Assembly: GCA_002762785.1 (NCBI GenBank)
Contig: PCXY01000005.1
Span: forward strand, 188,796-252,795
Reading direction: 5' to 3'
DNA length: 64,000 nt
DNA from: Candidatus Woesearchaeota archaeon CG10_big_fil_rev_8_21_14_0_10_45_16
Lineage (GTDB): Archaea; Nanobdellota; Nanobdellia; Woesearchaeales; GW2011-AR9
The notes beneath the pieces were generated by a model. The model was not told where the DNA came from and did not search any database. It saw only the letters and a program-made list of their open reading frames with translations. Both the position numbers and the translations under genes were made by a program. Below are positions 5 through 17,525 of this stretch, piece after piece. Positions within the stretch are counted from its first letter, which is position 1; every line of letters begins with the position of its first letter.

Positions 5-2896
5 ATGTACAAAGATAATCTATTTAAACCTAAAAGGATAGCTTACAGCAGTGTTGTCGGCGACCTTTTCCATTACGGTCATCTTCAGTCTCTTCAATAT
101 GCAAAATCCATATCAGATTATTTTGTTGTTGGCGTGATCACCGACGAAGGGGTTGAATCATACCGGGCCAAGCCCGTAGCTAATTTTGAAGAAAGGAAAG
201 CCGTCATCGAGAACCTACGATGTGTCGACCGGGTGATGGTGCAGAAAACGCGTGATCATACAGAAAACCTGATGAAACTCCATAGCGAGTTTCCGGATGC
301 AGAACTGATCCTGGTGCACGGAGACGATATCGCTGACATCCATGGAAAAGATTATGCTCTTCAGATAGGAGGGAGGGTCGCAGTCCACCCCTATTATAAT
401 CGTCTCTCAACATTTAAGATTATCCAGCATATACTGGAACAGAAAGACAAGATAAAGGATCTTACGACGTTCTCAAGCCTAATACAAAATGAGAGCGCAA
501 GAAAGAATATCCAAAATAAGATCATCATCTCGACGAAAGCGAACACTCTTGACGCCCTCAGGCCTCTTCTCAAACTATCAAGGATAGAAGATCTTTATTT
601 TTTTACGACCAGCGACTGGATGAACAAGAAAGAAAGGATACTAAATACGATCAAGGGAAGGTTCGGGCCGGCGAAGATTGTCATACGGAGTTCAGCGACA
701 AACGAAGACACGTTAGAGTCCGCAAATGCCGGCTGTTATGAAAGTATCCTGAACATAGATTCAACGGACGAATCAGAGATAGAAAAGGGGATTGAAGAAG
801 TTCTTGACTCATACAGGTCAAAGGATGCACAAAGCTCTTTTAATCAGGTCTTGGTACAGAAACAGACGGAAGGTATTATCATGAGCGGAGTCGTCTTCAC
901 AAGAACGCTTGAGTGGAACGCACCATATTATGTCATCAACTATGATGACGTCTCTGGCAGCACCGATTCGGTGACAGCAGGAAGAGAGAGCCAAAGTGTC
1001 TGCATTTCGCATTTCTGTGAAGATGCACCTGATAACATGAAAGATCTCATAAAAGCAGTGAAAGAGATCGAAGAGATGATCCCGGGAATACCTCTCGATA
1101 TTGAGTTCGCTGTCACGCAAAATGGTGAAGTCATTATCTTCCAAGTAAGGCCGCTGGCCACCAATATCAGGAAGAAAAAGAACGATTTTCTGGTGCGCCA
1201 GAAGATTACAGCTTTAAAAGAGAAGTTCAGATCTTTGAGCGTACCTCTGACGCATGTTGAGGGAGAAAAAACTATCTTCGCTGATATGCCGGACTGGAAT
1301 CCTGCCGAAATAATTGGAGACAGGCCAAACCACCTTGATTTTTCTCTTTATGATTACATCATCACTAATAGATCGTGGCATCTGGCCAGGACGTCGCAGG
1401 GCTATTTTGACGTCAAGAAAGCCCCTTTAGTAGAACTCTTCGGTGTCAAGCCATATATTAACGTAAGGTACTCTTTCAACTCATTCACGCCCGCTTCTTT
1501 ACCGAAAAAGACGCGAGAGAAGCTCGTCCAATTTTATCTAGAAAAACTCAAAGAGAACCGTCATCTCCAAGACAAGATAGAATTCGAGATAGCTTTCACC
1601 TGTTACGATTGCTCTTTCCCAGAGAAAATACGAGAGCTTCGAGAACACGATTTCAGTGATGAAGAGATAGAGGAGATAAGGTCTTCTATCCTTGATCTGA
1701 CAAACAGATTAGTCTCCGATGGTTTGAAAGATATCAATGATGATCTTAAGACGGTCTTCTCATTGGAGAAGAGAAGAGAAGAGATTATATCCCCAGCCCC
1801 TAATGTTCCTAATCCTTCCGAGATCATAGGATATGCAAAATTGCTTCTTGACGAATGCCATGAGAAAGGCACCATCCAGTTTTCAAGGCTAGCTCGCCTT
1901 GGATTTATCGGGAAGATCATCCTAAATAGCCTGGTATCAAAAGGAGTGATTACATCCAATCTTTATGATAAAGCTTTTTCATCCATCGAAACTGTGGCGA
2001 CGGTCTTAAGCAATGATTTTGATGGTCTTTGTTCGGGAAATATTTCCAAGAGCGATTTCCTGCGTAAGTATAAACACCTCAGGCCAGGAACCTATGACGT
2101 AACGTCGCCTCGTTATGAAAACAATGACAAGTTACTATCGACATCGGTGGTCTTCAAGGATAATCATAGGAAAGAAAATTTTGTGTTGGATGGAGATGAC
2201 AAAAAGGCTATTGACCAAGAACTTCAACAACACGGTTTTACGTTTGATAGTAGGCATCTCTTCCGTTTCTTTGAGGAAGCGACCAAGGCGCGTGAACTGG
2301 CTAAATTTGAGTTTACAAAAAATCTTTCTGATGCCCTCGAACTGGTGGCTGATGCCGGAAAACTGATGGGTTTTACACGAAAAGAAGTCGCCATGCTTGA
2401 TATCAACGACATCTTCAAGATGAAAAATCAAGATATCACGAAGATGACGGCCGATTGGCAGGATCTGATAAAAGCCAGAGAACAGAAAAGAAATATTGAT
2501 ATGATGCTTGAACTTCCAGCCGTCATAAGAGACGAAGGGGATTTTGATATCGTTACACACTACCTAGCGAAACCAAACTTCATCACCCAAAAGACCATAA
2601 CATCTCCTATCATGAACATCGCCGAGATCGATCACCAGGATGTTCCTAATTTAGCTGGAAAAGTTGTTCTTATTGAGAACGGTGACCCAGGCTACGATTG
2701 GATCTTCACCAAAAATATCGGCGGTCTTATAACTAAGTATGGTGGTGTCGCCTCGCATATGTCTATCCGCTGTGCAGAGTTCGGCGTCCCTGCCGCCATC
2801 GGCTGCGGCAACGTCTTATTCAATAAATTAGTAAAAGCTAATACAGTTACTTTAGATTGCGCGAAACAGATGATAGATATCAGAGGCTTACGATGA
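5..2896 (+). CDS. Tri-domain fusion of an N-terminal TagD-like cytidylyltransferase with a PEP-synthase/PPDK-type ATP-binding domain and a C-terminal PEP-utilising phosphohistidine swivel domain. The PEP/pyruvate TIM-barrel domain is absent.
   Basis: The HxGH motif 'FHYGHL' with 'VVGVITDEG' lies near the N-terminus. The ATP-grasp-like block 'KIVIRSSATNEDTLESANAGCYESI' follows. The C-terminal mobile His domain reads 'GGLITKYGGVASHMSIRCAEFGVPAAIGCG'. The reading frame is continuous for 963 aa. Confidence 0.7.
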   Translation: MYKDNLFKPKRIAYSSVVGDLFHYGHLQSLQYAKSISDYFVVGVITDEGVESYRAKPVANFEERKAVIENLRCVDRVMVQKTRDHTENLMKLHSEFPDAELILVHGDDIADIHGKDYALQIGGRVAVHPYYNRLSTFKIIQHILEQKDKIKDLTTFSSLIQNESARKNIQNKIIISTKANTLDALRPLLKLSRIEDLYFFTTSDWMNKKERILNTIKGRFGPAKIVIRSSATNEDTLESANAGCYESILNIDSTDESEIEKGIEEVLDSYRSKDAQSSFNQVLVQKQTEGIIMSGVVFTRTLEWNAPYYVINYDDVSGSTDSVTAGRESQSVCISHFCEDAPDNMKDLIKAVKEIEEMIPGIPLDIEFAVTQNGEVIIFQVRPLATNIRKKKNDFLVRQKITALKEKFRSLSVPLTHVEGEKTIFADMPDWNPAEIIGDRPNHLDFSLYDYIITNRSWHLARTSQGYFDVKKAPLVELFGVKPYINVRYSFNSFTPASLPKKTREKLVQFYLEKLKENRHLQDKIEFEIAFTCYDCSFPEKIRELREHDFSDEEIEEIRSSILDLTNRLVSDGLKDINDDLKTVFSLEKRREEIISPAPNVPNPSEIIGYAKLLLDECHEKGTIQFSRLARLGFIGKIILNSLVSKGVITSNLYDKAFSSIETVATVLSNDFDGLCSGNISKSDFLRKYKHLRPGTYDVTSPRYENNDKLLSTSVVFKDNHRKENFVLDGDDKKAIDQELQQHGFTFDSRHLFRFFEEATKARELAKFEFTKNLSDALELVADAGKLMGFTRKEVAMLDINDIFKMKNQDITKMTADWQDLIKAREQKRNIDMMLELPAVIRDEGDFDIVTHYLAKPNFITQKTITSPIMNIAEIDHQDVPNLAGKVVLIENGDPGYDWIFTKNIGGLITKYGGVASHMSIRCAEFGVPAAIGCGNVLFNKLVKANTVTLDCAKQMIDIRGLR

Positions 2897-3570
2897 AGAT
2901 CGCTATTTCCCAAAGACAGGACCAGAACAGACACGGAGATTGGGTAGACAGCCTAGAACAAACATATGGAGTGTATTTTCAGCAGTTTGGAATTTCACTG
3001 ATACCGATACCAAATACGACTATCGACGTTGCGTCACTTTTGGATTCTTTAGAAATTGAAGGGATAATCCTTTCCGGCGGGAATGATATCAATCCTGAAA
3101 GTTATGGAGCAGCTAGGAAGGAAGGAATATCTTTAGCCTTAGGACGGGACGAGGTCGAAAGAGAGATGCTCAAGTATGCTCTCGACAAAAATCTCCCTGT
3201 TCTGGGAATCTGTAGAGGGATGCAGTTCATTAATGTTTATTTTAAAGGAAAATTGGTGGATTTTAAAGCGACCGGTTATGAACATCTCCCAAGAATGGAT
3301 CATACAGTGATGATAAAAGAATTCACCGAGTTGAGTGGTTCTAGAGTAAATTCTTTCCATAATTATGGTATCAGAATAAATGATCTGGGGAATGGTTTGA
3401 AGCCATTTGCAATTACAGAAGATGAAAAAACAGTTGAGGGGTTCTACCATTCCTCACGACCGATAGCAGGGATCGTCTGGCATCCTGAACGGCAAAGTCC
3501 TGATCCTGTTTTCAATGAGAAGATCATGAAAGCTTTTGTTTCAGGAGAATTATTCTGGAAGAAAAAGTAA
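2893..3570 (+). CDS. Class I glutamine amidotransferase-like protein of the peptidase C26 / gamma-glutamyl hydrolase family
   Basis: The Cys nucleophile motif 'GICRGMQ' is present, with 'VWHPE' near the C-terminus. The ATG at 2893 overlaps the upstream stop as ATGA; the track start at 2857 is a TTG. Confidence 0.65.
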   Translation: MKIAISQRQDQNRHGDWVDSLEQTYGVYFQQFGISLIPIPNTTIDVASLLDSLEIEGIILSGGNDINPESYGAARKEGISLALGRDEVEREMLKYALDKNLPVLGICRGMQFINVYFKGKLVDFKATGYEHLPRMDHTVMIKEFTELSGSRVNSFHNYGIRINDLGNGLKPFAITEDEKTVEGFYHSSRPIAGIVWHPERQSPDPVFNEKIMKAFVSGELFWKKK

Positions 3571-3581
3571 AAAAAGGAAAA

Positions 3582-4568
3582 CTAACGCAAAAAGCGTAGC
3601 AGAGTTCCTGACGGGATCTCTTGTGGTGAAAGAAGTTTCATCCCGTTGTAACCATCTGTTTCTTGTCTTCTATCAAAATCCATCGTCCGGGCTATCTGCA
3701 TCCTGTCTGCAAATTTTGTTTTATCTGCATCATATTGAACTCTTACTTCAAAGAAGCCGCCTTGGTCAAAGCTGCCCTCGGCATTGGCGTAAAGATCGTT
3801 ACCGTCGTTGCCCATCGGAACACCACGGACAGCGTTGAATAAAGCTTCGATACCAAAAGTGTGGGTTGCGCCCTGCACAACTCTTTGTCGTCCCTCAGAT
3901 AACTTTGGGACCAGATATGCGAGACCTCTCTGAGCAACCTGCTCTGGAGTTTCTTGGATCCTATCGTCTCCTTGATCCATAGCCACGGTCGCTTGATAAC
4001 GGAAACTTCCTGACGGGAATCTTCCTTTGTTTTCGGGGGTGCTTGATTCCACAAACAATTGATTGCCTTCATGATCCTCTACTAACTTACCATCAACATA
4101 GGCAAAAAAAGCAGGTTCTCCTAATGCCGGATGGCCGGCTTTGTCTCCAACAAACGTCAACCTGTATGGCGCGGCAGTAGCTTTGACAGCTGGCGCCATG
4201 GCATGAACACCGTTGATCTTAGCAACCGGAACGCCCCCTTTCAAAAGCTGGGCGTTATTCATCCCGATGTTTACATTACGTATAGTCTCAACGCAACGTA
4301 CTAAAGGAGAAGCAGTATAGAAAACTGTATCCTTTGCTGGATCAAATCCTTCAGGAAGGCTTAAATCTTGAGCATTAAGCCTGATCTCCAGCATAGATTG
4401 TGGTGAGATATGTGCTTCATCATCTGGACTTACACCAGCACCAGCCCAAGCTGTATATTGGCCATCTACTGAAGAAGTCTCCTCTCCAAAATTGACGAAA
4501 TCGCGAGCGCCGTGACGAAAGACACGAAGTACTCGTTCTTCCCAACGGTTAGTATTTACATTTGCCAT
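3582..4568 (-). CDS. Hypothetical protein of 328 aa with no recognisable family, no signal peptide and no TM segment
   Basis: This is a long ORF with coding-like composition. Its GC looks slightly higher than that of its neighbours. Confidence 0.5.
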   Translation of the reverse strand: MANVNTNRWEERVLRVFRHGARDFVNFGEETSSVDGQYTAWAGAGVSPDDEAHISPQSMLEIRLNAQDLSLPEGFDPAKDTVFYTASPLVRCVETIRNVNIGMNNAQLLKGGVPVAKINGVHAMAPAVKATAAPYRLTFVGDKAGHPALGEPAFFAYVDGKLVEDHEGNQLFVESSTPENKGRFPSGSFRYQATVAMDQGDDRIQETPEQVAQRGLAYLVPKLSEGRQRVVQGATHTFGIEALFNAVRGVPMGNDGNDLYANAEGSFDQGGFFEVRVQYDADKTKFADRMQIARTMDFDRRQETDGYNGMKLLSPQEIPSGTLLRFLR

Positions 4569-4698
4569 TTTATATTCCTCCTAAACACCTACCCTCTGCT
4601 CAGCTTGAATCACGAGGAACCATTTATAAACATGATGGAACTGTGGTCTAAGATGCTTCCATAATTTATATAAACGACAGACCTTAAAATTCTCACAG

Positions 4699-5487
4699 AT
4701 GAAAGCGATAATTCTCGCAGCCGGCATGGGCACCAGATTAGGGAAATATACTGAAAGCCTGCCAAAATGCATGCTCAATTTCAACGGCAAAACCCTTATC
4801 GAGAGACAGGTGGAGACTCTTAGAAAATGCGGAATAACTGATATCACCATTGTCAAAGGATATATGCCAGAGAAGATCGATATACCCAACACTAAAACGT
4901 ACCTCAATTCTGATTATCCAAACACCAACATGGTAGAAACCCTTTTCTGCGCGGAAGCGGAAATGGATGACGACATCCTGATCTGTTACGCTGATATCAT
5001 CTATGAAGAGAAGGTTCTCCAGACGATATTAGATAGTCCATCAGATGTCGGCGTCACCGTCGATGAAGATTATTGGGAATACTGGCAGTCACGAGCGGAT
5101 AACCCCGAGGACGACATGGAAAGCCTCATCATCGAAGATGGCAGGATAGTCGATCTGGGAAATACTAAGTGCACCAGGGAAGACGCGAAAGTGCGTTATG
5201 TTGGCCTTATCAAATTATCAAAAGCCGGCGTTCAAAAGCTACGGGAAGTCTATCATCAGAACAAGATAGATCATTTTCTTAAGAACAAGCCATGGCTGCG
5301 GTCAAAGTCTTTCAAGAAAGCTTATATGACCTGCCTGATCCAGGCCCTTATCAACAGCGGACAGGAAGTGAAGCCGATCACCATCAGAAGAGGCTGGCTG
5401 GAGTTTGATACTGTTGAAGATTATGAGAGATATGTTAGCTGGGCTGATGAAGGAAATCTAGGACGTTTCCTGAGTCTCGACAACTAG
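4699..5487 (+). CDS. LicC-like nucleotidyltransferase, probably a CTP:phospho-alcohol cytidylyltransferase
   Basis: The N-terminal 'MKAIILAAGMGTRLG' motif followed by 'PKCML' is typical of the LicC / sugar-phosphate nucleotidyltransferase fold. Confidence 0.7.
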   Translation: MKAIILAAGMGTRLGKYTESLPKCMLNFNGKTLIERQVETLRKCGITDITIVKGYMPEKIDIPNTKTYLNSDYPNTNMVETLFCAEAEMDDDILICYADIIYEEKVLQTILDSPSDVGVTVDEDYWEYWQSRADNPEDDMESLIIEDGRIVDLGNTKCTREDAKVRYVGLIKLSKAGVQKLREVYHQNKIDHFLKNKPWLRSKSFKKAYMTCLIQALINSGQEVKPITIRRGWLEFDTVEDYERYVSWADEGNLGRFLSLDN

Positions 5488-6234: not shown

Positions 6235-6248
6235 TTATATATTTAACG

Positions 6249-6296
6249 AATTAGAGAATTAGAGAATTAGAGAATTAGAGAATTAGAGAATTAGAG
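6249..6296. repeat. Perfect tandem repeat (AATTAGAG)x6 ending 4 nt before the cmk ATG, in the divergent intergenic region
   Basis: The repeat is read directly from the sequence: 'aattagag' occurs six times with no mismatch. Confidence 0.95.
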
Positions 6297-6300
6297 AGAT

Positions 6301-9551: not shown

Positions 9552-9659
9552 GCACCCTCAGGAATGGGGCCGATTTAAATATTTTTAGTTTTTAAAGGTA
9601 GTAACAAAAAAGGACCTTATTTCCTAAAGTTTAAAAAGGGCTGATCAGGTAAAGACAGT

Positions 9660-10103: not shown

Positions 10104-10126
10104 ATTCATTTAATTTCGATACGCTG

Positions 10127-11227: not shown

Positions 11228-11269
11228 ACCGATGATTTAGTGTCGGCAACAGGTTTAGAAAGATTTACC

Positions 11270-12196
11270 ATGGATAAAAAAGAACTATTGGAATATACTT
11301 TTCAAAAAATAGGTTCTCACATCGCGACGAGAGCCGTTCCAGCCAGACTGAACAACGATCCTGAATTTGATCCAGAAAAAGCAGCACAGATCTGCCATTG
11401 GCTGTACCGGCTAGGGGGCTGCGACCAGGCTCTTTATGATAAAGCTGTCAATGATTTCATAGACTATTCGCTGGAATTCCTAAAATTACAGGCGGAACTC
11501 GAGAGCGCCCAAAGATATCACTTTTCATCCTATAAAAAACTGCAGGAAGAGATCTATGAAAATCCAGAAGTGATGGAAAACCGGTATCTCAACGGGTTGT
11601 ATCTTACACAGGCCTTGTGGATAAACCACCACAAGATGCTGGCATTTTTCATCAAAAAGTTCTGCTCTGGTCTTGACGTTCAGGGAAAAGCAGTAGAAGT
11701 CCCGGTCGGTACCGGTATCTATGCAGCAGAATTCGCAGCAAGAAATAAAGATTGGCTGGTAGAAGGATATGATCTCAGCCCCAGTGCGGTTGATTATTCT
11801 AAAAAGATGATACCCATAATCTCGCCAGATAAAGAAGTCGCCGTATTTGAGAAGAATGTCTTTGACCTCCCTGACGACAAGAAGTATGACCGTATCATCT
11901 GCGGAGAATTGATGGAAAATTTTGAAGATCCCCATCCACTGCTAGAAAAGCTGGGAAAACTTCTCAACGAGGAAGGAAAGATCTTTCTCACCAGCTCCGT
12001 CTGGGCGGCGGCAATCGACCACATCTATCTCTTTACCAAAGTACAAGAACTGAGGGATGTCCTTTCTTCTCACTTTAAGATAGAGGAAGAACTGGCCCTC
12101 AATGTATTCCAAAACAAGAAGCCCGAAGATGAAAAGACACCGATAAATTATGCCTGTATCCTCAGCCGCCGGTCAGAAGAGCCATCTCAAGACTAA
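11270..12196 (+). CDS. Class I SAM-dependent methyltransferase
   Basis: The SAM-binding motif 'VEVPVGTGIYAAEFA' followed by 'EGYDLS' is present. The ATG start was chosen in place of the track's GTG at 11240. Confidence 0.65.
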   Translation: MDKKELLEYTFQKIGSHIATRAVPARLNNDPEFDPEKAAQICHWLYRLGGCDQALYDKAVNDFIDYSLEFLKLQAELESAQRYHFSSYKKLQEEIYENPEVMENRYLNGLYLTQALWINHHKMLAFFIKKFCSGLDVQGKAVEVPVGTGIYAAEFAARNKDWLVEGYDLSPSAVDYSKKMIPIISPDKEVAVFEKNVFDLPDDKKYDRIICGELMENFEDPHPLLEKLGKLLNEEGKIFLTSSVWAAAIDHIYLFTKVQELRDVLSSHFKIEEELALNVFQNKKPEDEKTPINYACILSRRSEEPSQD

Positions 12197-12228
12197 AAGA
12201 AAACTTCACAAGAGTTTCATCTATCAAA

Positions 12229-13773
12229 ATGATCAGATTAATCCAAGATTATTTCCAACTGTCAGCAGAACGCTCTCCAAAGAAAGTTGCAGTCGTCTAC
12301 GGTGAAGAGAAGATAACGTACAAAGATCTGGACAAAAAGAGCAACCAGTTGGCTCATCTTATCAGGTCGATCGGCGTGAAGAGAAACGACCGAGTAGCAT
12401 TCTGCCTGCATAAGTCGATCGATGCTATCGTTTCCATCCTTGCCATCTTAAGATCCGACTGCTGTTATGTTCCGATGGACGCTAAATCGCCGGAACAGCG
12501 GCTTCGGTATATCGTTGAAGACTGCCAGCCGGCAGTTATCATCTGCAGTCCCGAGACTCACGTTTCCGTGCAATCTTTAGTAGATGGTTGGATCTCAGGA
12601 AAAAGACCAATAGTGATCGTTCTCGGATCTGAGGAGATTGAGAGACAACAGGTGAGCCTGCCTCCAATAGGAAACATCCAGGATGACCTTGCCTACATCT
12701 TCTATACTTCTGGATCTACTGGGAAGCCGAAAGGAGTGATGATAACTCATGGCAATCTTATCAATTTTGTAGAGTGGGCTGCTGATTGTTTCCAGGTCGC
12801 TGAAGATGATATCATCGCCAACCATGCGCCGCTCCACTTTGACATTTCCGGGTTTGATATCTACGCATCGTTTAAGAAAGGGGCTACTCTAGTGTTAGTG
12901 CCGCCGGAACTTAGTCTATTTCCAGCAAAGATAGTCAACCTCATCGAACAAGAGAAGATCACTATCTGGCAGTCGGTTCCCAGCATCCTGGTGCATATGG
13001 CCAAGATGGGAGCGCTTCAAGAGAACACCATGCCCAGCCTGAAGAAGATCATCTTCATCGGCGAAGTCTTTCCCACACCCTTCCTTATCCGCTGGATGAA
13101 GACCTTCCCGAAGAAAGAATTCATCAACTTTTACGGTCCGACAGAATGCACCATCGGCTGTGCATATTATCCTATCAAAGAGGTTCCAGAGGATTCGACA
13201 ACCGCTATTCCTTTAGGAAGAGCAGCTAAAAACATGGAAATGTTCGCCCTGAAAGAAGATGACAGCCTGGCTAACGTTGGAGAAATAGGTGAGTTATGCA
13301 TCCGAGGGCCGACAGTGAGTCCCGGCTACTGGAACAATAAAGAGAAGACTGAGAAAGCGTTTGTGGTAGATCCGCTATTTCCCCATCTAAATGGAAAAAT
13401 CTATAAAACAGGAGACTTGGTAGAAGCCCTTCCTGAGGAGATGTTCACATTCAGAGGAAGAAAAGACAGCCAGATCAAGTTTATGGGATACCGGATCGAG
13501 CTGGGAGAGATAGAGTCAGCGTTATACTCCCTGGGATATGTTAAAGAAGCTGCAGTCATCTACTTGTCTTCAGATGAGAAAAGTGAGATTGTCGCCTTCG
13601 TGGCTCTAAATCGTGAGAGCAGCCCCGGACAGATAAAAGATGATCTGAAGAAGAAGATCCCTTCCTACATGATCCCCCGGACAATCACTATAAAAGATGC
13701 TCTTCCCCTCAACAGTTCAGGGAAGATAGACCGGGTAAAATTAAGACAGGAGTGCGAGAACGATGGAAACTAA
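12229..13773 (+). CDS. DltA-like adenylation enzyme (AMP-binding, carrier-protein ligase)
   Basis: The adenylation-domain motifs 'YTSGSTGKPKGV', 'YGPTE', 'YKTGD', 'GRKDSQIKFMGYRIELGEIE' and 'SGKIDR' are all present. Confidence 0.8.
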   Translation: MIRLIQDYFQLSAERSPKKVAVVYGEEKITYKDLDKKSNQLAHLIRSIGVKRNDRVAFCLHKSIDAIVSILAILRSDCCYVPMDAKSPEQRLRYIVEDCQPAVIICSPETHVSVQSLVDGWISGKRPIVIVLGSEEIERQQVSLPPIGNIQDDLAYIFYTSGSTGKPKGVMITHGNLINFVEWAADCFQVAEDDIIANHAPLHFDISGFDIYASFKKGATLVLVPPELSLFPAKIVNLIEQEKITIWQSVPSILVHMAKMGALQENTMPSLKKIIFIGEVFPTPFLIRWMKTFPKKEFINFYGPTECTIGCAYYPIKEVPEDSTTAIPLGRAAKNMEMFALKEDDSLANVGEIGELCIRGPTVSPGYWNNKEKTEKAFVVDPLFPHLNGKIYKTGDLVEALPEEMFTFRGRKDSQIKFMGYRIELGEIESALYSLGYVKEAAVIYLSSDEKSEIVAFVALNRESSPGQIKDDLKKKIPSYMIPRTITIKDALPLNSSGKIDRVKLRQECENDGN

Positions 13774-14020
13774 AGAGATAATAATTGATATCATCAAAGA
13801 ATTTAAGCAGAAAGACGAAATCCTGCATCCAGAGGAACTGATCAGCAGTGGTTTCTTTGATTCGTTTGATATCTTTTCATTGATCGAAAAGATTGAGAAG
13901 AGATTTTCTTTGAAACTGGATGGAAACGACATCACTATCGAGAATTTTGAAAACATCAGCACCATCTCGGCTATCGTTGAGAGATCCCTGAAAGGCAAAA
14001 GCGATGAGCAGCAGACCTAA
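13763..14020 (+). CDS. Small DltC-like carrier protein
   Basis: The 85-aa acidic protein carries a putative phosphopantetheine-attachment Ser in 'GFFDSFD'. Its start overlaps the upstream adenylase stop by 11 nt. Confidence 0.6.
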   Translation: METKEIIIDIIKEFKQKDEILHPEELISSGFFDSFDIFSLIEKIEKRFSLKLDGNDITIENFENISTISAIVERSLKGKSDEQQT

Positions 14021-14367
14021 TTGATGACCACGACAAAAGCCATGGCATTTTCATCAGTGTGAGAGATGCTGCAGAGAATATCTTTTCTCTCTTCTCCTTT
14101 TATGAAAACAGATGGTCTGCCAGTAGCATCATTGATGACTTCTATATCCAGTAGAGGGATTTTGGAGGAGATGTTTCTTGAAATGGCTTTTAACACTGCT
14201 TCTTTCACGCAGAACTTACCGGTAAGATGGATCGCAGGATCTACTTTGCTTCGGCAATAAGTGAGTTCCCTAGGCGTAAAAAGAAGAGAGAGGAAATGGT
14301 CGTCATCCAGTTTTTCTTTGAAGCGGCTGACTTTCTCGATATCTACTCCTATGTTTTGAAAAGACAT
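14017..14367 (-). CDS. acpS: Holo-ACP synthase (4'-phosphopantetheinyl transferase, AcpS type)
   Basis: The motifs 'GVDIEKVSRF' and 'KEAVLKA' match the AcpS pattern. The protein is 116 aa. Confidence 0.65.
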   Translation of the reverse strand: MSFQNIGVDIEKVSRFKEKLDDDHFLSLLFTPRELTYCRSKVDPAIHLTGKFCVKEAVLKAISRNISSKIPLLDIEVINDATGRPSVFIKGEERKDILCSISHTDENAMAFVVVIN

Positions 14368-14450
14368 ACCGCAGATATCTATGATCCCATTATAAAGATT
14401 GTTAAAGTAGGAACAAAAAATTTAAAAGGAACTTGGCAGACATAGGCAAT

Positions 14451-14588
14451 ATGGGAGCGATATGGGATTTCCTAAAAGTACGTAAGATCTGGTGGATAAC
14501 ACCGCTGGTTATTCTGGCGATTCTCTTAGCGTTTATGTTTCTGGCCGGAGGGAGCGCGCCGGTAACTGATGTCTACGCCCCCATTTAA
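14451..14588 (+). CDS. Putative 45-aa single-TM membrane peptide
   Basis: This is an ATG-started ORF, 'MGAIWDFLKVRKIWWITPLVILAILLAFMFLAGG', that is absent from the 60-aa ORF track. It is strongly hydrophobic. Confidence 0.3.
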   Translation: MGAIWDFLKVRKIWWITPLVILAILLAFMFLAGGSAPVTDVYAPI

Positions 14589-15445
14589 CTTACTCTATTT
14601 TTCTCCTGGATGAAACCGATCTGCTGTAGGATAAAGCTCATGCCCAAGAAGAAGATGATAAGAGGCAGACGCCAGTTGGTGATGTTGGCTTTGAGGATGT
14701 TTTTTGCTGACCAGAAACGTAACCTGATAAGACCGCCAACTTTCCCCACTTTTTTCTTAAACTGGTAATTAGCCTTGCCACGTCGCAGCTGCCATTTGAC
14801 AAAAGAAGAGAAGGTTGTTCTTGCTTCATGGAAAGCATAGCCTTCAGGAACATATTTTATTGGAATATGACTCTTTTCTATCCGCCATGACAACTCAGCA
14901 TCTTCCGCTCCTGATTTCATCGATTCATCGAAAAAGCCCACCTTCTCGAATAAAGATTTTCTTAAAGCGCAGTTTCCGGCTGCCAGATGGTTGGTGAAAC
15001 CTGACTTCGACACTTTCCACATCTTGCTGAAGCCGATACTGCCGCCGCCAGGAAATCCTAACGCAGAGATGCAGTCACCGATAAGGTTTGACTTTGGTAT
15101 CCTGGTGCCGCTGGTGACGGCCAATAGTGAAAGATCCTCCTCAAGAGGTTTTATCAAAGATGAAAGCCATCTTTCATGCACCCAACAGTCGTCATCGATA
15201 AAGACGATTATATCTCCCATCGCTCTTTTGATGCCTTGGTTTCGGTTGAAAGGGATCCCTCTTTTTGGCGGGACGTTGTAGTACTTTATGGGAAGCGGCA
15301 GCTGTGGAAGTGGCAGCGGTTCAACAGCTTCATGGATGAAGATGATCTCAGTATCAGGATTGACCTGTCCTTTCATCGAGTTCAACAACCTTCTGATCTT
15401 ACTCTCCCTGAACCTGTCAAAGATCACTACGATAGAAACTTTCAT
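14585..15445 (-). CDS. Family 2 glycosyltransferase (GT-A fold)
   Basis: The DxD motif 'IIVFIDDDCW' is present with a C-terminal TM segment. Confidence 0.7.
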   Translation of the reverse strand: MKVSIVVIFDRFRESKIRRLLNSMKGQVNPDTEIIFIHEAVEPLPLPQLPLPIKYYNVPPKRGIPFNRNQGIKRAMGDIIVFIDDDCWVHERWLSSLIKPLEEDLSLLAVTSGTRIPKSNLIGDCISALGFPGGGSIGFSKMWKVSKSGFTNHLAAGNCALRKSLFEKVGFFDESMKSGAEDAELSWRIEKSHIPIKYVPEGYAFHEARTTFSSFVKWQLRRGKANYQFKKKVGKVGGLIRLRFWSAKNILKANITNWRLPLIIFFLGMSFILQQIGFIQEKNRVS

Positions 15446-16731
15446 CTCCTTCCCATCCCGTGGTATTGGAACCCTTCTTCTTTGACCAGTTCAGGTTCAT
15501 AGATGTTGCGGCCGTCAAAGATACGCTTGGTTTTCATCTTGAGTTCTGAAAGGTTGACATTCCTGAACTCGTCCCATTCTGTTATGACCAAGATACCATC
15601 GCTGTCTTGGGCGGCTTCTTCCGCCGTGGCGCAGTAAGTTATAGAATCACCAAAAAAATGCTTGGCTTCTTCTACAGCTTTGGGATCATAGGCTCTTATC
15701 CTTGCGCCGTGTTTCAACAGTTCAGAGATGATGGTGATAGCAGGGGCTTCCCTCATGTCACTGGTATTGGGCTTGAACGCTAATCCCCAGACACAGAACG
15801 TTTTTCCGGTGATGTCGTTATTGGATGCAGCCAAGACCTTTTCGACAAGAACTGATTTCTGCCGATCATTGAGAGCCATCACTTCTTCAAATAATCTCGC
15901 TCTGTAGCCGACCTCTTTAGCCGTATGGGCCAGGGCCTTGACATCTTTGGGAAAACAGGATCCGCCGTAGCCCACGCCTGGATTAAGAAATCTCGGAGAG
16001 ATGCGGTAATCCATACCTAGAGCCATGGCCACCATCTTGACGTCAGCCCCAGTGCGGTCGCAGATGTTAGCTATCTCGTTGATGAATGAGATCTTTGTAG
16101 AAAGGAAACTGTTGTTGGCATATTTTATCAGCTCGGCGGTCTCCAAATCAGTCTCTACCACAGGAAGATAGGTCCTGAGCCGGCCGGAATAGACTTTTCT
16201 CATCAGATGGAAAGCTTGATCGTTGGCTGCGCCGACAACTATTTTATCAGGATAATTGAAAGCCCTGATTGCTAACCCTTCCCGCAAGAATTCTGGATTA
16301 GAGACAATATCGATATTTGCCGCAGGATTGATCTCTTTGATCATCTGCTGACATTTCCTGGCAGTTCCGGGAGGTACGGTGCTCTTGATGACCAGCAATT
16401 TTTTGCTGTCTGACCTGGCAGCAGCCTTGACGACCGAAAAGACGTACTCCAGATTAGCTGATCCGTCATCATTGCTTGGTGTGCCGACGCAGTTGAAGAT
16501 GACCTCTCCGAACGCAACGCCTTCATCGATGTTGGAGCTGAAATGAAGACGACTTTTGTTTCTGATGGTCAGCTCTTCCAGACCCGGCTCGTAGAAAGGG
16601 ATCTGACCTTCCTGCAGCGTCTTTATCTTTGCCGTATCTATATCGATGCAGAGAACCTGGTGGCCTAAATTGGCCAGGCAGGCACCGGTGACAAGACCGA
16701 CGTAACTGGTGCCGAAGATGCTTATTTTCAT
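15442..16731 (-). CDS. ugd: UDP-glucose 6-dehydrogenase
   Basis: The N-terminal Rossmann motif 'MKISIFGTSYVGLVTGACLA', the catalytic 'GGSCFPKD' and a full-length 429-aa architecture are present. Confidence 0.85.
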   Translation of the reverse strand: MKISIFGTSYVGLVTGACLANLGHQVLCIDIDTAKIKTLQEGQIPFYEPGLEELTIRNKSRLHFSSNIDEGVAFGEVIFNCVGTPSNDDGSANLEYVFSVVKAAARSDSKKLLVIKSTVPPGTARKCQQMIKEINPAANIDIVSNPEFLREGLAIRAFNYPDKIVVGAANDQAFHLMRKVYSGRLRTYLPVVETDLETAELIKYANNSFLSTKISFINEIANICDRTGADVKMVAMALGMDYRISPRFLNPGVGYGGSCFPKDVKALAHTAKEVGYRARLFEEVMALNDRQKSVLVEKVLAASNNDITGKTFCVWGLAFKPNTSDMREAPAITIISELLKHGARIRAYDPKAVEEAKHFFGDSITYCATAEEAAQDSDGILVITEWDEFRNVNLSELKMKTKRIFDGRNIYEPELVKEEGFQYHGMGRR

Positions 16732-16793
16732 GCTGTTTACCGTTAGAAGACCCCTTAAATACTTTGTGTAACAAAAATGACCAATCTAACCTC

Positions 16794-17525
16794 TTATTTT
16801 GCGTAGAAAAGATTAGCTTTTTCTAATGATTCAATGGTGCCAATGTCAAACCAATGTTCTGTGAAGATAAAACCATGTACTTCAGACACGTTTATTAGAT
16901 AGGGGATGATGTTGCCTGGAGCATCTCCGCCCTTTTCTTTTAATAAAATATCGATCTGTGGAAGATCCCCTTTAGTGAAGATGTAGCAAGCTGTAGACCC
17001 TAAGGCACTTTTTGGTTCAGACGGTTTTTCTTCAAAATTGATTACTTTGGTACCTTCGATGATACCGACTCCCAGACGACCTCTTACGATGTTAACATCA
17101 CCAAAGTCACGGAAAGCCACAATTGAAGTATTCTTTTCGTTGTAGAACTTAACAAAATTTTGTAAAGAGAAGCCAAAGAGATTGTCACCGGCGATGACCA
17201 ATAGATCATCATTGATGTTCTCAGTCTTTATGACATGATTGATGTCGCCAACGGAGCCGAGACGAGCTTCATTAGTCTTAGTATAATCGTTGATGATCTT
17301 GATCGGTTTGTCATAGGTGTAATGTTCTAACCAGTCCATGAAGTTGCTGTAGAACTTATCATTGGTCACTACATAGATGCTTTCCACATCATCAACTGCA
17401 GCTAATTTGTCCAAGATATATTCCATGAGAGGCTTATCAGCCACTTTTAGAAGTGGTTTAGGCGTGTTTTTTGTCAATGGATATAATCTGGTGGCGTATC
17501 CGGCTGCCAGGATCAATGCTTTCAT
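16794..17525 (-). CDS. Sugar-1-phosphate nucleotidyltransferase of the short glucose-1-P thymidylyl/uridylyltransferase form
   Basis: The N-terminal motif 'MKALILAAGYATRLYPLTKNTPKPLL' is characteristic of this family. Confidence 0.75.
   Translation of the reverse strand: MKALILAAGYATRLYPLTKNTPKPLLKVADKPLMEYILDKLAAVDDVESIYVVTNDKFYSNFMDWLEHYTYDKPIKIINDYTKTNEARLGSVGDINHVIKTENINDDLLVIAGDNLFGFSLQNFVKFYNEKNTSIVAFRDFGDVNIVRGRLGVGIIEGTKVINFEEKPSEPKSALGSTACYIFTKGDLPQIDILLKEKGGDAPGNIIPYLINVSEVHGFIFTEHWFDIGTIESLEKANLFYAK

What the first reader, a model, noticed from the sequence alone, without database searches (positions are those of the whole stretch)
5..17525. CDP-alcohol (teichoic-acid-like) envelope polymer locus in an archaeon
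About 17 kb of this archaeal window encodes chemistry typical of bacterial teichoic-acid or phosphocholine decoration. There are two cytidylyltransferases (5-2896 and 4699-5487), a CDP-alcohol phosphotransferase (5458-6234) and CMP kinase. UDP-glucose dehydrogenase, a GT2, a sugar-1-P nucleotidyltransferase and a Dlt-like esterification module are also present. Archaea are not known to make teichoic acids, so a polyol-phosphate or phospho-alcohol surface polymer with ester decoration here would be a previously undescribed envelope system. A second possible source is horizontal transfer from bacteria.
Basis: partly seen in the sequence, partly recalled or inferred. Interest (0 to 1): 0.8.

Follow-up and report, generated by a model that had tools for sequence, protein, structure and literature searches.

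The report
Archaeal surface-sugar decoration island, phosphoramidate genes
This stretch of a tiny groundwater archaeon (a Woesearchaeote) is not a teichoic-acid locus but a cluster of genes for decorating surface sugars, including close counterparts of the rare Campylobacter pathway that makes a phosphorus-nitrogen (phosphoramidate) group and a Dlt-like machine for adding amino-acid esters.

Summary
The genes are real and the contig is archaeal: a Candidatus Woesearchaeota MAG with thermosome, archaeal PheRS and Cbf5 in the same window.

The key gene was misread. ORF 5-2896 is only about 15% cytidylyltransferase. The rest is a PRK05849 (NF004508) ATP-grasp/swivel-His kinase that JGI names "glutamine kinase".

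Together with the overlapping amidotransferase-type hydrolase (2893-3570) and the NTP_transf_3 gene (4699-5487), it forms a three-gene cassette. In the best 80 of at least 596 related genomes, the partners appear in 73 and 68 loci, in the order kinase, hydrolase, nucleotidyltransferase, sometimes followed by an APS-kinase-like gene. That is the order of C. jejuni Cj1418-1417-1416-1415, which makes the CDP-amidate donor of O-methyl phosphoramidate.

No teichoic-acid polymerase, linkage or export genes are present.

The CDP-alcohol-phosphotransferase-family gene (5458-6234) lacks two of the four signature aspartates, yet it is a recurrent neighbour of the cassette (17/80 loci). It may be the transferase; this is inferred.

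The Dlt-like module (A domain, carrier, AcpS, MBOAT, two SGNH/DltD-like proteins, methyltransferase) is genuine. It recurs in three other DPANN contigs, in one with a different activating enzyme. It is independent of the cassette.

Verdict: a composite glycan-decoration island, and a new variant of known systems.

The parts
5..2896 (+). ORF1, 963 aa. N-terminal PF01467 cytidylyltransferase-like domain (HxGH = H23-G25-H26), fused to a PRK05849 L-glutamine-kinase-type enzyme (ATP-grasp plus PEP-utilizer swivel domain; invariant His918 in GGVASHM).
   Evidence: Pfam and NCBIfam: NF004508 at 858 bits, above the 501 cutoff. Homologues are named 'glutamine kinase' by JGI. Invariant residues come from alignment A1. 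At least 596 genomes encode relatives.
2893..3570 (+). ORF2, class-I glutamine-amidotransferase-fold hydrolase. Candidate gamma-glutamyl-CDP-amidate hydrolase (Cj1417-like). Start codon overlaps the ORF1 stop.
   Evidence: Peptidase_C26, 101.8 bits. Best NCBIfam hit is NF045546 at 112 bits, below the 250 cutoff. Bacterial and archaeal cassette partners fall in a similar range, 61-131 bits. GICRG nucleophile elbow and HPE are present. A homologue sits next to the kinase in 73/80 loci. Called gene and ATGA overlap.
3582..4568 (-). ORF3, 328 aa, divergent histidine-phosphatase-superfamily protein inserted inside the cassette. Role unknown.
   Evidence: No Pfam hit. Only 11 clusters match among 1.84 billion representatives. 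The gene lies in the same position inside the cassette in L165, L006, L013 and L018. AF2 model: pLDDT 92, pTM 0.90. All top 50 Foldseek PDB hits are histidine phosphatases, E = 1e-7 to 3e-5. Profile against PDB hits Sts-1 at E = 0.0016. R18, H19, R22, R91, T95 and H236 are invariant; E94 is nearly so.
4699..5487 (+). ORF4, NTP_transf_3 nucleotidyltransferase. Third conserved cassette gene, candidate CTP:phosphoglutamine cytidylyltransferase (Cj1416 position).
   Evidence: PF12804, 58 bits. A homologue is present in 68/80 loci, almost always directly after the hydrolase on the same strand. It is the only nucleotidyltransferase in the 44 unfused loci.
5458..6234 (-). ORF5, polytopic membrane protein of the CDP-alcohol phosphotransferase family with a degenerate signature (DxxDGxxAR..G..E..L). 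Candidate transferase for the CDP-activated group.
   Evidence: PF01066, 35.5 bits. Best PDB hit is AF2299. Motif alignment. An HMM of the same subfamily hits 17/80 cassette loci and 0/80 control loci. It lies next to the cassette in L165, and a 59% orthologue lies beside a CT-PEP-mutase gene in L166.
6301..7083 (+). ORF6, bacterial-type (d)CMP kinase. Possibly recycles CMP, but it is not a conserved partner.
   Evidence: TIGR00017, 164 bits, above the 135.55 cutoff. 0 hits in the 80 cassette loci and in L165-L168.
7142..8641 (-). ORF7, MBOAT (DltB/AlgI-like) transmembrane O-acyltransferase.
   Evidence: PF03062, 91.5 bits. TIGR04091 DltB, 172.7 bits, below the 375 cutoff. The WHI His motif lies in the peptide EFWKRWHI. 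Closest relatives are DPANN.
8583..9551 (-). ORF8, membrane-anchored DltD-like SGNH protein (GDS ... DxxH).
   Evidence: PF04914, 25.9 bits. N-terminal TM segment and sequence. Paired with the MBOAT in L165, L166, L167 and L169-L171.
9660..10103 (+). ORF9, DUF386 (YhcH/YjgK/YiaL) cupin. Not a conserved module member.
   Evidence: PF04074, 145.8 bits. Absent from L165, L166 and L169.
10127..11227 (+). ORF10, second membrane-anchored SGNH/AlgX-like protein.
   Evidence: Weak Lipase_GDSL_2/ALGX hits. N-terminal TM segment. 46-48% orthologues in L165 and L166, and a 371-aa gene in the same position in L169.
11240..12196 (+). ORF11, class-I SAM methyltransferase. A conserved member of the Dlt-like module (called gene 11270-12196).
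   Evidence: 51% orthologues in the same position in L165 and L166, and also present in L169.
12229..13773 (+). ORF12, stand-alone NRPS/DltA-type amino-acid adenylation enzyme.
   Evidence: TIGR01733, 390 bits, above the 317 cutoff. DltA subfamily NF003417, 358 bits, below the 476 cutoff. PDB best hits are LgrA, prolyl-carrier ligase and DltA. Asp205 (FD motif) and Lys499 are kept. Specificity code is DIFQIIFIG+K.
13763..14020 (+). ORF13, 85-aa carrier protein (GFFDSF serine motif), overlapping the end of ORF12.
   Evidence: PP-binding, 18.9 bits, below the 20.8 cutoff. DltC model, 24 bits, below the 68 cutoff. Sequence. Same position in L165 and L169.
14017..14367 (-). ORF14, AcpS-type 4'-phosphopantetheinyl transferase.
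   Evidence: PF01648, 65.3 bits. TIGR00556, 77 bits, above the 45 cutoff. Conserved in L165, L166 and L169.
14433..14588 (+). Small 51-aa membrane ORF (DUF5989) next to the GT2.
   Evidence: Called in L002 and L165 with PF19451. ORF in the window.
14585..15445 (-). ORF15, GT2 glycosyltransferase.
   Evidence: PF00535, 57.5 bits. 62% orthologue in L165.
15442..16731 (-). ORF16, UDP-glucose 6-dehydrogenase.
   Evidence: TIGR03026, 439 bits, above the 190 cutoff.
16794..17525 (-). ORF17, sugar-1-phosphate nucleotidyltransferase.
   Evidence: PF00483, 115.6 bits.

Best explanation
The region is the right-hand part of a surface-glycan synthesis and decoration island of at least 27 kb in a Woesearchaeote (DPANN archaeon). 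It is built from independent modules.

**Module 1 (5-5487): homologue of the C. jejuni phosphoramidate-donor pathway.**
- ORF4 (NTP_transf_3) condenses the product with CTP to give CDP-L-glutamine.
- ORF2 (Cys-His-Glu amidotransferase fold) hydrolyses this to cytidine diphosphoramidate plus glutamate.
- Two lineage-specific additions have unknown roles: the PF01467 cytidylyltransferase-like domain fused to the kinase, and the histidine-phosphatase-fold ORF3.

**Module 2 (5458-6234, inferred).** A divergent CDP-alcohol-phosphotransferase-family membrane protein transfers the CDP-activated phosphoryl group to a hydroxyl of a membrane-bound acceptor and releases CMP.

**Module 3 (7142-14367): a Dlt-like machine.**
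- The A domain (ORF12) loads an amino acid onto the carrier ORF13.
- ORF13 is primed by the AcpS-type PPTase ORF14.
- The MBOAT ORF7 passes the acyl group across the membrane.
- The anchored SGNH/DltD-like proteins ORF8 and ORF10 esterify an extracytoplasmic glycan.
- A conserved methyltransferase (ORF11) belongs to this module.

**Module 4 (14585-17525).** Supplies UDP-glucuronate and a GT2.

A PAPS sulfation module, a flippase and a GT1 lie just upstream of the window.

**Shown versus inferred.** Family memberships, catalytic motifs, synteny and distribution are shown. All substrates, products and acceptors are inferred.
For: **Cassette identity.**
- NF004508 scores 858 bits, and JGI names homologues 'glutamine kinase'.
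- NF045546 (gamma-glutamyl-CDP-amidate hydrolase) is the top model for ORF2 and for cassette partners from Vibrio, Leptospira, Cohnella, Pseudomonas, Nitrosopumilus and a Woesearchaeote. For the Haloferax partner it ranks third, at 61 bits.
- The HxGH motif, His918 and the GICRG/HPE motifs are conserved.

**Synteny.**
- The ORF2 homologue is present in 73/80 loci and the ORF4 homologue in 68/80, in the order kinase, hydrolase, NTP_transf_3.
- In several loci an APS-kinase-like gene follows directly (for example L047, L058, L077, L084). This is the order of Cj1418-1417-1416-1415 (pathway as summarised in PMC11800397).

**Fusions and parallels.**
- Triple fusions with an APS-kinase domain exist (P0083, P0091).
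- In the phosphonate field, PEP mutase is fused to PF12804, PF01467 or both (PMC6697681).
- The best PDB hit of ORF1's N-terminal domain is the Fom1 cytidylyltransferase domain (5x3d).

**ORF5.**
- An HMM of its subfamily hits 17/80 cassette loci and 0/80 control loci. Hits usually lie within about 2.5 kb of the cassette.
- In L166 a 59% orthologue sits beside a CT-PEP-mutase gene.

**Dlt-like module.**
- All parts are present and carry their motifs.
- The same gene set recurs in L165 and L169, and in L166 with a different, larger activating enzyme.

**Archaeal origin.**
Against: - I could not obtain the C. jejuni sequences for a direct comparison. ORF2 is below the curated equivalog cutoff (112 versus 250 bits), and no curated model exists for Cj1416.
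- No Cj1415-type kinase lies inside the window. The nearest APS kinase (upstream, fused to CysQ) sits with an ATP sulfurylase and two sulfotransferases, and is most simply a PAPS enzyme.
- No counterpart of the Cj1421/Cj1422 transferases could be tested.
- ORF5 lacks the fourth (catalytic-base) aspartate of its family, and only about 20% of cassettes have such a neighbour.
- The extra PF01467 domain could change the product.
- The amino acid activated by ORF12 is unknown, and its specificity code is not shared by the 54% orthologue in L165.
- The MBOAT/A-domain module is absent from all 80 cassette loci, so the modules need not act on one polymer.
- There is no chemical evidence for any product.
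Confidence: 0.7

Rival explanations
1. The phosphoramidate donor is made as above but is used as in C. jejuni. An APS-kinase-family enzyme (the APS-kinase/CysQ fusion about 1.2 kb upstream of the window) adds a 3'-phosphate. A soluble PAPS-type (sulfotransferase-fold) enzyme encoded next to ORF1 transfers the group. CysQ and cmk recycle the nucleotide. ORF5 is then an unrelated lipid head-group or phospho-alcohol transferase.
For: - APS-kinase-like genes are recurrent cassette members (16/80 loci), and triple fusions exist.
- In L069 a CysQ-like gene and an APS-kinase-like gene follow the cassette directly.
- A sulfotransferase-family gene lies divergently next to ORF1, and a 53% orthologue lies near the cassette in L165.
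Against: - In the loci where the sulfotransferase and APS kinase recur (L008, L013, L048), an ATP sulfurylase is there too. An ordinary sulfation module explains them.
- The upstream kinase passes the apsK equivalog-domain cutoff.
- I found no evidence that sulfotransferase-fold enzymes transfer phosphoramidate.
Confidence: 0.2
2. In the PF01467-fused archaeal form the cassette makes a different CDP/CMP-linked product. Examples are a group that retains glutamine, or a second cytidylylated phospho-compound. The final decoration is then not a phosphoramidate.
For: - 36/80 loci carry the extra cytidylyltransferase-like domain with an intact HxGH motif, while also keeping the NTP_transf_3 gene.
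- Relatives of this domain cytidylylate small phosphonates (Fom1, PMC6697681).
- ORF3 is an added phosphatase-fold enzyme.
Against: - The hydrolase partner with an intact catalytic triad is kept in fused loci. This argues that glutamate is still removed.
- Fused and unfused forms intermix within the DPANN clade.
Confidence: 0.15
3. One reading: a teichoic-acid-like poly(polyol-phosphate) or phosphocholine-type polymer, made from CDP-alcohols and esterified by a Dlt system.
For: - A CDP-OH_P_transf-family gene, PF01467 and NTP_transf_3 nucleotidyltransferases and a Dlt-like module are all present.
- ORF1's N-terminal domain and the protein at 18842-20017 weakly match the TagD model, at 40 and 71 bits against a cutoff of 165.
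Against: - No PF04464 polymerase and no TagO/A/B, TagGH, LtaS, LicA/LicD or polyol-phosphate dehydrogenase lie in the island or in the 10 kb upstream.
- Both nucleotidyltransferases are accounted for by the conserved kinase-hydrolase-nucleotidyltransferase cassette.
- The Dlt-like module occurs in DPANN genomes without that cassette.
Confidence: 0.07
4. Bacterial contamination or a recent bacterial transfer accounts for the 'bacterial-looking' genes.
For: - cmk, AcpS and the A domain are typically bacterial families.
- cmk is of the bacterial type.
Against: - The island is on one 568-kb archaeal contig and was assembled independently in two other data sets.
- Archaeal markers and a 5S rRNA flank it.
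- GC content is uniform.
- The nearest relatives of ORF1 and of the MBOAT are DPANN archaea.
Confidence: 0.02

Closest known systems
O-methyl phosphoramidate (MeOPN) donor pathway of Campylobacter jejuni capsule: Cj1418 L-glutamine kinase, Cj1416 CTP:phosphoglutamine cytidylyltransferase, Cj1417 gamma-glutamyl-CDP-amidate hydrolase, Cj1415 CDP-amidate 3'-kinase
   Same: - The same three enzyme families in the same gene order.
- A PEP-utilizer-type kinase with a swivel His.
- An amidotransferase-fold hydrolase with a Cys-His-Glu triad.
- Embedded in a glycan locus with UDP-glucose dehydrogenase and glycosyltransferases (PMC11800397).
   Different: - Archaeal host.
- An extra PF01467 domain fused to the kinase.
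- A histidine-phosphatase-fold gene inserted on the opposite strand.
- No 3'-kinase inside the cassette.
- No identified Cj1421/1422-type transferase.
- A CDP-alcohol-phosphotransferase-family membrane protein next door.
- No proof of O-methylation or of any P-N product.
Dlt system (DltA, DltC, DltB, DltD) for D-alanylation of teichoic acids in Firmicutes
   Same: - Stand-alone A domain.
- Small carrier protein.
- MBOAT.
- Membrane-anchored DltD-like SGNH protein.
- AcpS-type priming.
   Different: - All parts score below the DltA/B/C equivalog cutoffs.
- The module has a second SGNH protein and a conserved methyltransferase.
- Sister loci add a 2-oxoacid_dh-type acyltransferase.
- The PPTase is encoded within the module.
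- The amino acid is unknown and probably varies between orthologues.
- No teichoic acid acceptor exists.
- DltX was not looked for.
Phosphonate tailoring by nucleotidyl activation (Fom1 CyTase-PEP mutase, PntC/LicC-type cytidylyltransferases)
   Same: - A P-X-forming enzyme fused to a PF01467 domain, accompanied by a PF12804 nucleotidyltransferase.
- A cell-surface glycan context.
- In L166 the ORF5 orthologue sits beside a CT-PEP-mutase gene (PMC6697681).
   Different: Here the P-X-forming enzyme is a glutamine-kinase homologue (P-N), not a PEP mutase (P-C). No Ppm, Ppd or AEP transaminase lies in the window.
CDP-alcohol phosphotransferases (AF2299, IPCT-DIPPS, archaetidylinositol-phosphate synthase)
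   Same: - Pfam PF01066 membership.
- Polytopic membrane protein.
- The DxxDGxxAR...G part of the signature.
- Best PDB hit is AF2299.
   Different: - The third aspartate is Glu.
- The fourth (proposed catalytic base; this role is recalled from knowledge of the family) is Leu.
- The fourth aspartate is missing in most members of this cassette-linked subfamily.
- Scores to named synthases are far below cutoffs (37 versus 180 bits).
Wall and lipoteichoic acid synthesis (Tag/Tar, LtaS)
   Same: Use of cytidylyltransferases, and a Dlt-like decoration step.
   Different: No polymerase, linkage-unit, export or LtaS genes.

Membership tests
C. jejuni-type phosphoramidate (CDP-amidate) donor pathway | L-glutamine kinase: ATP-grasp plus substrate domain plus swivel phospho-His domain (Cj1418 family) | tested here: met
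   NF004508/PRK05849, 858 bits, above the 501 cutoff, over residues 171-958. PPDK_N and PEP-utilizers domains are present. His918 is invariant in 24 homologues. JGI names homologues 'glutamine kinase'. That Cj1418 itself belongs to PRK05849 is recalled from memory, not verified.
C. jejuni-type phosphoramidate (CDP-amidate) donor pathway | gamma-glutamyl-CDP-amidate hydrolase (Cj1417) adjacent to the kinase | tested here: inconclusive
   NF045546 is the best model (112 bits) but is below its 250 cutoff. The same holds for the bacterial and archaeal cassette partners tested (61-131 bits). The catalytic Cys (GICRG) and His-Glu (HPE) are present. The gene is adjacent in 73/80 loci.
C. jejuni-type phosphoramidate (CDP-amidate) donor pathway | CTP:phosphoglutamine cytidylyltransferase (Cj1416) | tested here: inconclusive
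   No curated model is available. ORF4 (NTP_transf_3) occupies the conserved third position in 68/80 loci and is the only nucleotidyltransferase in the 44 unfused loci. Cj1416 is listed as a 'nucleotidyltransferase' in PMC3546167. Its fold family is recalled from memory.
C. jejuni-type phosphoramidate (CDP-amidate) donor pathway | CDP-amidate 3'-kinase of the APS-kinase family (Cj1415) | tested here: inconclusive
   None in the window. An APS-kinase/CysQ fusion lies about 1.2 kb upstream but sits with an ATP sulfurylase and sulfotransferases. APS-kinase-like genes occur in 16/80 cassette loci.
C. jejuni-type phosphoramidate (CDP-amidate) donor pathway | Phosphoramidate transferases (Cj1421/Cj1422) and O-methylation | not testable with these tools
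   Reference sequences could not be retrieved. The only methyltransferase in the region (ORF11) belongs to the Dlt-like module.
C. jejuni-type phosphoramidate (CDP-amidate) donor pathway | A P-N-bonded product on a glycan | not testable with these tools
   Needs 31P NMR or mass spectrometry.
Teichoic acid synthesis (Tag/Tar/LtaS) | Poly(glycerol/ribitol-phosphate) polymerase (PF04464 Glyphos_transf) or LtaS | tested here: not met
   No such hit among the ORFs of 1-20.8 kb or among the called genes of the 10 kb upstream.
Teichoic acid synthesis (Tag/Tar/LtaS) | CDP-glycerol or CDP-ribitol synthesis (TagD, TarI/TarJ) | tested here: not met
   TagD model TIGR01518 scores 40 bits (ORF1 N-terminus) and 71 bits (18842-20017), against a cutoff of 165. 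There is no polyol-phosphate dehydrogenase.
Teichoic acid synthesis (Tag/Tar/LtaS) | Linkage-unit enzymes and ABC exporter (TagO/A/B, TagGH) | tested here: not met
   None found. The only export-type gene nearby is a Wzx-like flippase upstream.
Dlt D-alanylation system | DltA-type carrier-protein ligase | tested here: inconclusive
   It is an amino-acid adenylation domain (TIGR01733, 390 bits, above the 317 cutoff). It is below the DltA cutoffs: NF003417, 358 versus 476; TIGR01734, 334 versus 560. The alpha-amino-binding Asp and the A10 Lys are kept.
Dlt D-alanylation system | DltC carrier protein with phosphopantetheinylated Ser | tested here: inconclusive
   PP-binding, 18.9 bits (cutoff 20.8). 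DltC model, 24 bits (cutoff 68). A DSF serine motif is present. The gene overlaps the end of the A-domain gene, and an AcpS gene is adjacent.
Dlt D-alanylation system | DltB MBOAT and DltD | tested here: inconclusive
   MBOAT Pfam is met (91.5 bits), but the DltB equivalog scores 172.7 versus 375. DltD Pfam is met marginally (25.9 versus 22.7) over the C-terminal 80 residues. GDS and DxxH motifs and an N-terminal anchor are present.
Dlt D-alanylation system | D-alanine as substrate and teichoic acid as acceptor | not testable with these tools
   The specificity code DIFQIIFIG+K matches no code I can assign, and the L165 orthologue differs (DLWLFTMVE). No teichoic acid genes are present.
CDP-alcohol phosphotransferase family | Signature D-x2-D-G-x2-A-R-x8-G-x3-D-x3-D with all four aspartates | tested here: not met
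   ORF5 reads D-HV-D-G-NL-A-R-x8-G-SYL-E-QLA-L. The fourth position is non-acidic in most of the 20 subfamily members aligned. The Pfam domain score itself passes.

The most novel reading that the evidence does not exclude
DPANN archaea, and many other archaea and bacteria that carry the cassette, decorate their surface glycans with phosphoramidate (P-N) groups. In this lineage the group would be installed directly from cytidine diphosphoramidate by a divergent CDP-alcohol-phosphotransferase-family membrane enzyme. That would be a transfer route different from the 3'-phospho-CDP-amidate route of Campylobacter. The same glycans would be sulfated and aminoacyl-esterified by an archaeal Dlt-like, carrier-protein-dependent machine.
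Probability: 0.2. Interest if true: 0.8.

Novelty: new variant of a known kind. Interest (0 to 1): 0.55.

Why it matters
**Phosphoramidate chemistry may be widespread.**
- Phosphoramidate decoration of glycans is described in the literature held here as a Campylobacter peculiarity: 'C. jejuni-specific glutamine kinase' (PMC9561416) and 'only identified in Campylobacter sp.' (PMC6429109).
- The only archaeal mention I found is a structure-based prediction for Methanoperedens Borgs (bioRxiv 10.1101/2024.11.05.622173).
- This window, and the scan it prompted, show the kinase-hydrolase-nucleotidyltransferase cassette in at least 596 species-level genomes.
- These include many DPANN archaea, Nitrosopumilus, and culturable haloarchaea (Haloferax elongans, Natrarchaeobius).
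- P-N glycan chemistry in archaea is therefore directly testable.

**Possible biological role.** In Campylobacter this group is a phage receptor and is phase-variable. For host-attached DPANN cells, such decorations could matter for host or virus recognition.

**Carrier-protein chemistry in reduced archaea.** The Dlt-like module with its own PPTase shows that carrier-protein-dependent esterification of extracellular polymers occurs in archaea with reduced genomes. It occurs there independently of teichoic acids.

Tried and rejected
1. The Raushel-laboratory papers on Cj1415-1418 (PMC5629633, PMC5938751, PMC5938747, PMC6643271) are not held. I could not retrieve C. jejuni sequences for a direct comparison, and the one genome-contig scan kept only the 80 best loci.
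2. A metagenome scan with the MBOAT returned only distant AlgI-like relatives (35-47% identity) without A domains. It served only as a control set.
3. An AF2 model of ORF3 from 4 sequences failed (pLDDT 40). A 10-sequence alignment worked.
4. I considered whether cmk is part of the system. I rejected it as a conserved member because it has 0 hits in the related loci.
5. I considered whether the neighbouring sulfotransferase-fold protein is the phosphoramidate transferase. It is kept only as a rival, because ATP sulfurylase co-occurs with it.
6. I tried to predict ORF12's substrate from its specificity code. The GrsA numbering was verified against 1amu. The code DIFQIIFIG+K shares only 5 of 10 positions with the glycine code as I remember it. 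The L165 orthologue differs, so no call is made.
7. I tested whether the PF01467 fusion predicts the presence of the ORF5-like gene. It is present in 11/36 fused and 5/44 unfused loci, which is a weak trend only.
8. ORF18 (17653-18636) and DUF386 are not conserved with either module.

Full report
**Observation**

Pfam and NCBIfam searches confirm these assignments:

| Coordinates | Assignment |
|---|---|
| 4699-5487 | NTP_transf_3 |
| 5458-6234 | CDP-OH_P_transf |
| 6301-7083 | bacterial-type cmk |
| 7142-8641 | MBOAT |
| 8583-9551 | DltD-like |
| 9660-10103 | DUF386 |
| 10127-11227 | SGNH-like |
| 11240-12196 | methyltransferase |
| 12229-13773 | amino-acid adenylation domain |
| 13763-14020 | small carrier protein |
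| 14017-14367 | AcpS-type PPTase |
| 14585-15445 | GT2 |
| 15442-16731 | UDP-glucose dehydrogenase |
| 16794-17525 | sugar-1-P nucleotidyltransferase |

**The contig is archaeal**

- ORF1 is identical to a protein of a Candidatus Woesearchaeota MAG (CG10_big_fil_rev) on a 568-kb contig.
- The same island was assembled independently in a Logan run and a JGI metagenome.
- The window also carries a thermosome (792 bits), archaeal PheRS alpha and beta, Cbf5 and a 5S rRNA.
- GC content is uniform.

ORF 5-2896 (963 aa) has the cytidylyltransferase-like PF01467 domain only at residues ~10-145. Residues 171-958 match NCBIfam NF004508 (PRK05849) at 858 bits against a cutoff of 501. They contain PPDK_N (ATP-grasp) and PEP-utilizer swivel domains. 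JGI names several homologues 'glutamine kinase'.

The next gene (2893-3570) overlaps the ORF1 stop with its ATG. It is a class-I amidotransferase-fold protein. Its best NCBIfam model is gamma-glutamyl-CDP-amidate hydrolase, the Cj1417 function (112 bits, below the 250 cutoff). Its nucleophile elbow GICRG and its HPE motif are intact.

These two functions, followed by a nucleotidyltransferase and an APS-kinase-like enzyme, make up the pathway by which C. jejuni produces the donor for its O-methyl phosphoramidate capsule decoration. Cj1418 is the L-glutamine kinase, Cj1416 makes CDP-L-glutamine, Cj1417 hydrolyses it to cytidine diphosphoramidate, and Cj1415 adds the 3'-phosphate (summarised in PMC11800397, PMC6429109 and PMC10971088).

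**Test by comparative genomics**

A scan of one genome per species found at least 596 genomes that encode a relative of ORF1. Results for the best 80 loci:

| Feature | Result |
|---|---|
| ORF2 homologue present | 73/80 loci |
| ORF4 (NTP_transf_3) homologue present | 68/80 loci |
| Gene order | nearly always kinase, hydrolase, nucleotidyltransferase on one strand |
| APS-kinase-like gene nearby | 16 loci; directly after the cassette in e.g. L047 (Ekhidna), L058 (Haloferax elongans), L077 and L084 |
| Triple fusions with an APS-kinase domain | exist (P0083, P0091) |
| Best NCBIfam model for cassette hydrolases | NF045546 for Vibrio, Leptospira, Cohnella, Pseudomonas, Nitrosopumilus and a Woesearchaeote (91-131 bits); third-ranked at 61 bits for Haloferax |

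This gene order is the Cj1418-1417-1416-1415 order.

The 'second cytidylyltransferase' at 4699-5487 is therefore the third member of this cassette. It is not the partner of the CDP-alcohol phosphotransferase.

Hosts of the cassette include:
- DPANN archaea: Woese-, Pace-, Nano-, Altiarchaeales, Iainarchaeum and Micrarchaeia;
- Nitrosopumilus;
- haloarchaea;
- many bacteria.

In an NJ tree of the kinase domain the window lies in a clade of 24 archaeal sequences. Recent bacterial transfer is therefore not indicated.

**Lineage-specific features of the cassette**

1. *The PF01467 fusion.* It is present in 36 of the 80 loci. The other 44 have no PF01467 gene nearby. The domain keeps HxGH. Its best solved relative is the Fom1 cytidylyltransferase domain (5x3d). 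Phosphonate pathways show the same pattern of a P-X-forming enzyme fused to PF01467, PF12804 or both (PMC6697681). Its substrate here is unknown.

2. *ORF3 (3582-4568, opposite strand).*
   - It has no Pfam match, and it belongs to a family of only 11 clusters among 1.84 billion representatives.
   - The gene lies inside the cassette in four other Woesearchaeota loci.
   - An AF2 model from a 10-sequence alignment is confident (pLDDT 92).
   - All of its top 50 Foldseek PDB matches are histidine phosphatases.
   - A sequence profile finds Sts-1 at E = 0.0016.
   - R18, H19, R91 and H236 are invariant, and E94 is nearly so.
   - It is most likely a phosphohydrolase or mutase that serves this pathway. 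Which step it serves is not known.

**The CDP-alcohol phosphotransferase gene (5458-6234)**

- It passes the Pfam threshold, and its best solved relative is AF2299.
- Its signature has Glu in place of the third aspartate and Leu in place of the fourth. Most members of its subfamily also lack the fourth.
- An HMM of this subfamily hits 17 of the 80 cassette loci (1.47 Mb) and none of 80 MBOAT-centred control loci (0.76 Mb). The HMM was trained on the first set, so this control is rough.
- The gene is usually within about 2.5 kb of the cassette, in archaea and in bacteria.
- In L165 it lies beside the fused kinase. In L166 a 59% orthologue lies beside a cytidylyltransferase-PEP-mutase gene.

I infer that it transfers a small CDP/CMP-activated phosphoryl group (phosphoramidate here, phosphonate there) to a membrane-bound acceptor and releases CMP. 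This is a hypothesis; I put it at about 0.3 on its own. The main rival is the Campylobacter-like route through a 3'-phosphorylated donor.

cmk is genuine but is not conserved with the cassette.

**The Dlt-like module**

| Part | Evidence |
|---|---|
| ORF12 | NRPS/DltA-type adenylation enzyme; keeps the alpha-amino-binding Asp and the A10 Lys |
| ORF13 | carries a DSF serine motif |
| ORF14 | AcpS-type PPTase |
| ORF7 | has the MBOAT His motif |
| ORF8, ORF10 | N-terminal anchors and SGNH motifs |

- The gene set (SGNH, methyltransferase, A domain, carrier, PPTase, DltD-like, MBOAT) recurs in DPANN contigs L165 and L169. It also recurs in L166 with a different, larger activating enzyme. A 2-oxoacid_dh-type acyltransferase is usually added.
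- More distant archaeal relatives keep only the DltD-like protein and the MBOAT.
- The module is absent from all 80 cassette loci, so the two modules are independent neighbours.
- All parts score below the curated Dlt equivalog cutoffs.
- The specificity code is DIFQIIFIG+K. The GrsA numbering used to derive it was verified against 1amu. The code cannot be assigned to an amino acid, and it differs in the L165 orthologue.

**Context**

Upstream of the window the same contig encodes:
- a Wzx-like flippase;
- a GT1;
- two sulfotransferases;
- a pyruvate-kinase/ATP-sulfurylase fusion;
- an APS-kinase/CysQ fusion;
- SerB-like phosphatases.

No teichoic-acid polymerase, linkage or export gene occurs anywhere in this 30 kb.

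**Conclusion**

The region is a composite glycan-decoration island. Its 'CDP chemistry' is best explained as the phosphoramidate-donor pathway known from Campylobacter, in a modified archaeal form. A Dlt-like aminoacylation module that is independent of teichoic acids lies next to it.

The literature held here treats the glutamine kinase and MeOPN as Campylobacter-specific (PMC9561416, PMC6429109). The only archaeal mention is a prediction for Borg elements (10.1101/2024.11.05.622173).

All substrates and products remain inferred. I could not compare directly with the C. jejuni sequences.

Noticed in passing
L003 1-9881 (the 10 kb upstream of window position 5 on the same contig): A complete sulfation module and more glycan genes. 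These are a Wzx-like flippase, a GT1, two sulfotransferase-family proteins, a pyruvate-kinase-like/ATP-sulfurylase fusion (750 aa), an APS-kinase/CysQ fusion (440 aa) and two SerB-like HAD proteins. The island therefore starts well before the window.
   Followed up: partly
L058 (Haloferax elongans ATCC BAA-1513), L065 (Natrarchaeobius oligotrophus), L039/L045 (Nitrosopumilus): Culturable or well-studied archaea carry the kinase-hydrolase-NTP_transf_3 cassette. In Haloferax elongans an APS-kinase-like gene follows it directly. In Natrarchaeobius an ORF5-like gene is adjacent. These organisms would allow the chemistry to be tested.
   Followed up: partly
L166 11512-16142: In a related Woesearchaeote the closest ORF5 orthologue (59%) follows the MBOAT. 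It sits beside a flippase, a 308-aa unknown, a PF01467-PEP-mutase fusion and a phosphonate ABC transporter. This looks like a phosphonate variant of the same island.
   Followed up: partly
L057 8017-9974, and 13 other loci (e.g. L011, L040, L063, L077, L083): A formyltransferase-like gene (14/80 loci) and a 218-aa protein with no Pfam match (8/80 loci) recur just upstream of the kinase in bacteria and in DPANN. A sulfatase-family gene recurs in 14/80 loci and mostly does not overlap with the ORF5-like gene. None of these is in the window.
   Followed up: no
window 17653-18636 (+): A 327-aa Cys-rich protein with an N-terminal hydrophobic segment and an HETTH (HExxH) motif. It has no Pfam or NCBIfam match and may be a secreted metallopeptidase.
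   Followed up: no
window 18654-18766 (-): A lone 5S rRNA gene sits between the island and the next genes, with no 16S or 23S in the window.
   Followed up: no
window 18842-20826 (+): A PF01467 nucleotidyltransferase fused to a HAD-IIB/phosphomannomutase-like domain (391 aa). It is followed by a weak type II pantothenate-kinase-like protein (91 bits, cutoff 234). The latter is a possible link to CoA supply for the PPTase, which I did not test.
   Followed up: no
window 25944-27377 (-): A second CDP-OH_P_transf protein with a stronger Pfam score (58 bits), fused to a weak diacylglycerol-kinase catalytic-domain match (477 aa). It is a likelier lipid head-group enzyme than ORF5.
   Followed up: no
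window 24848-24919 and 25810-25897 (-): Two tRNA-His(GTG) genes lie 0.9 kb apart. The second is 88 nt long and may contain an intron.
   Followed up: no
window 52764-54986 (-): A 740-aa fusion of dihydroorotase and dihydroorotate dehydrogenase/oxidase.
   Followed up: no
record titles (e.g. L005, L008, L009, L013): Several MAGs whose cassette proteins are the closest relatives of the Woesearchaeote protein are labelled 'uncultured Methanosarcinales archaeon'. The labels look doubtful, given the DPANN-like gene content.
   Followed up: no
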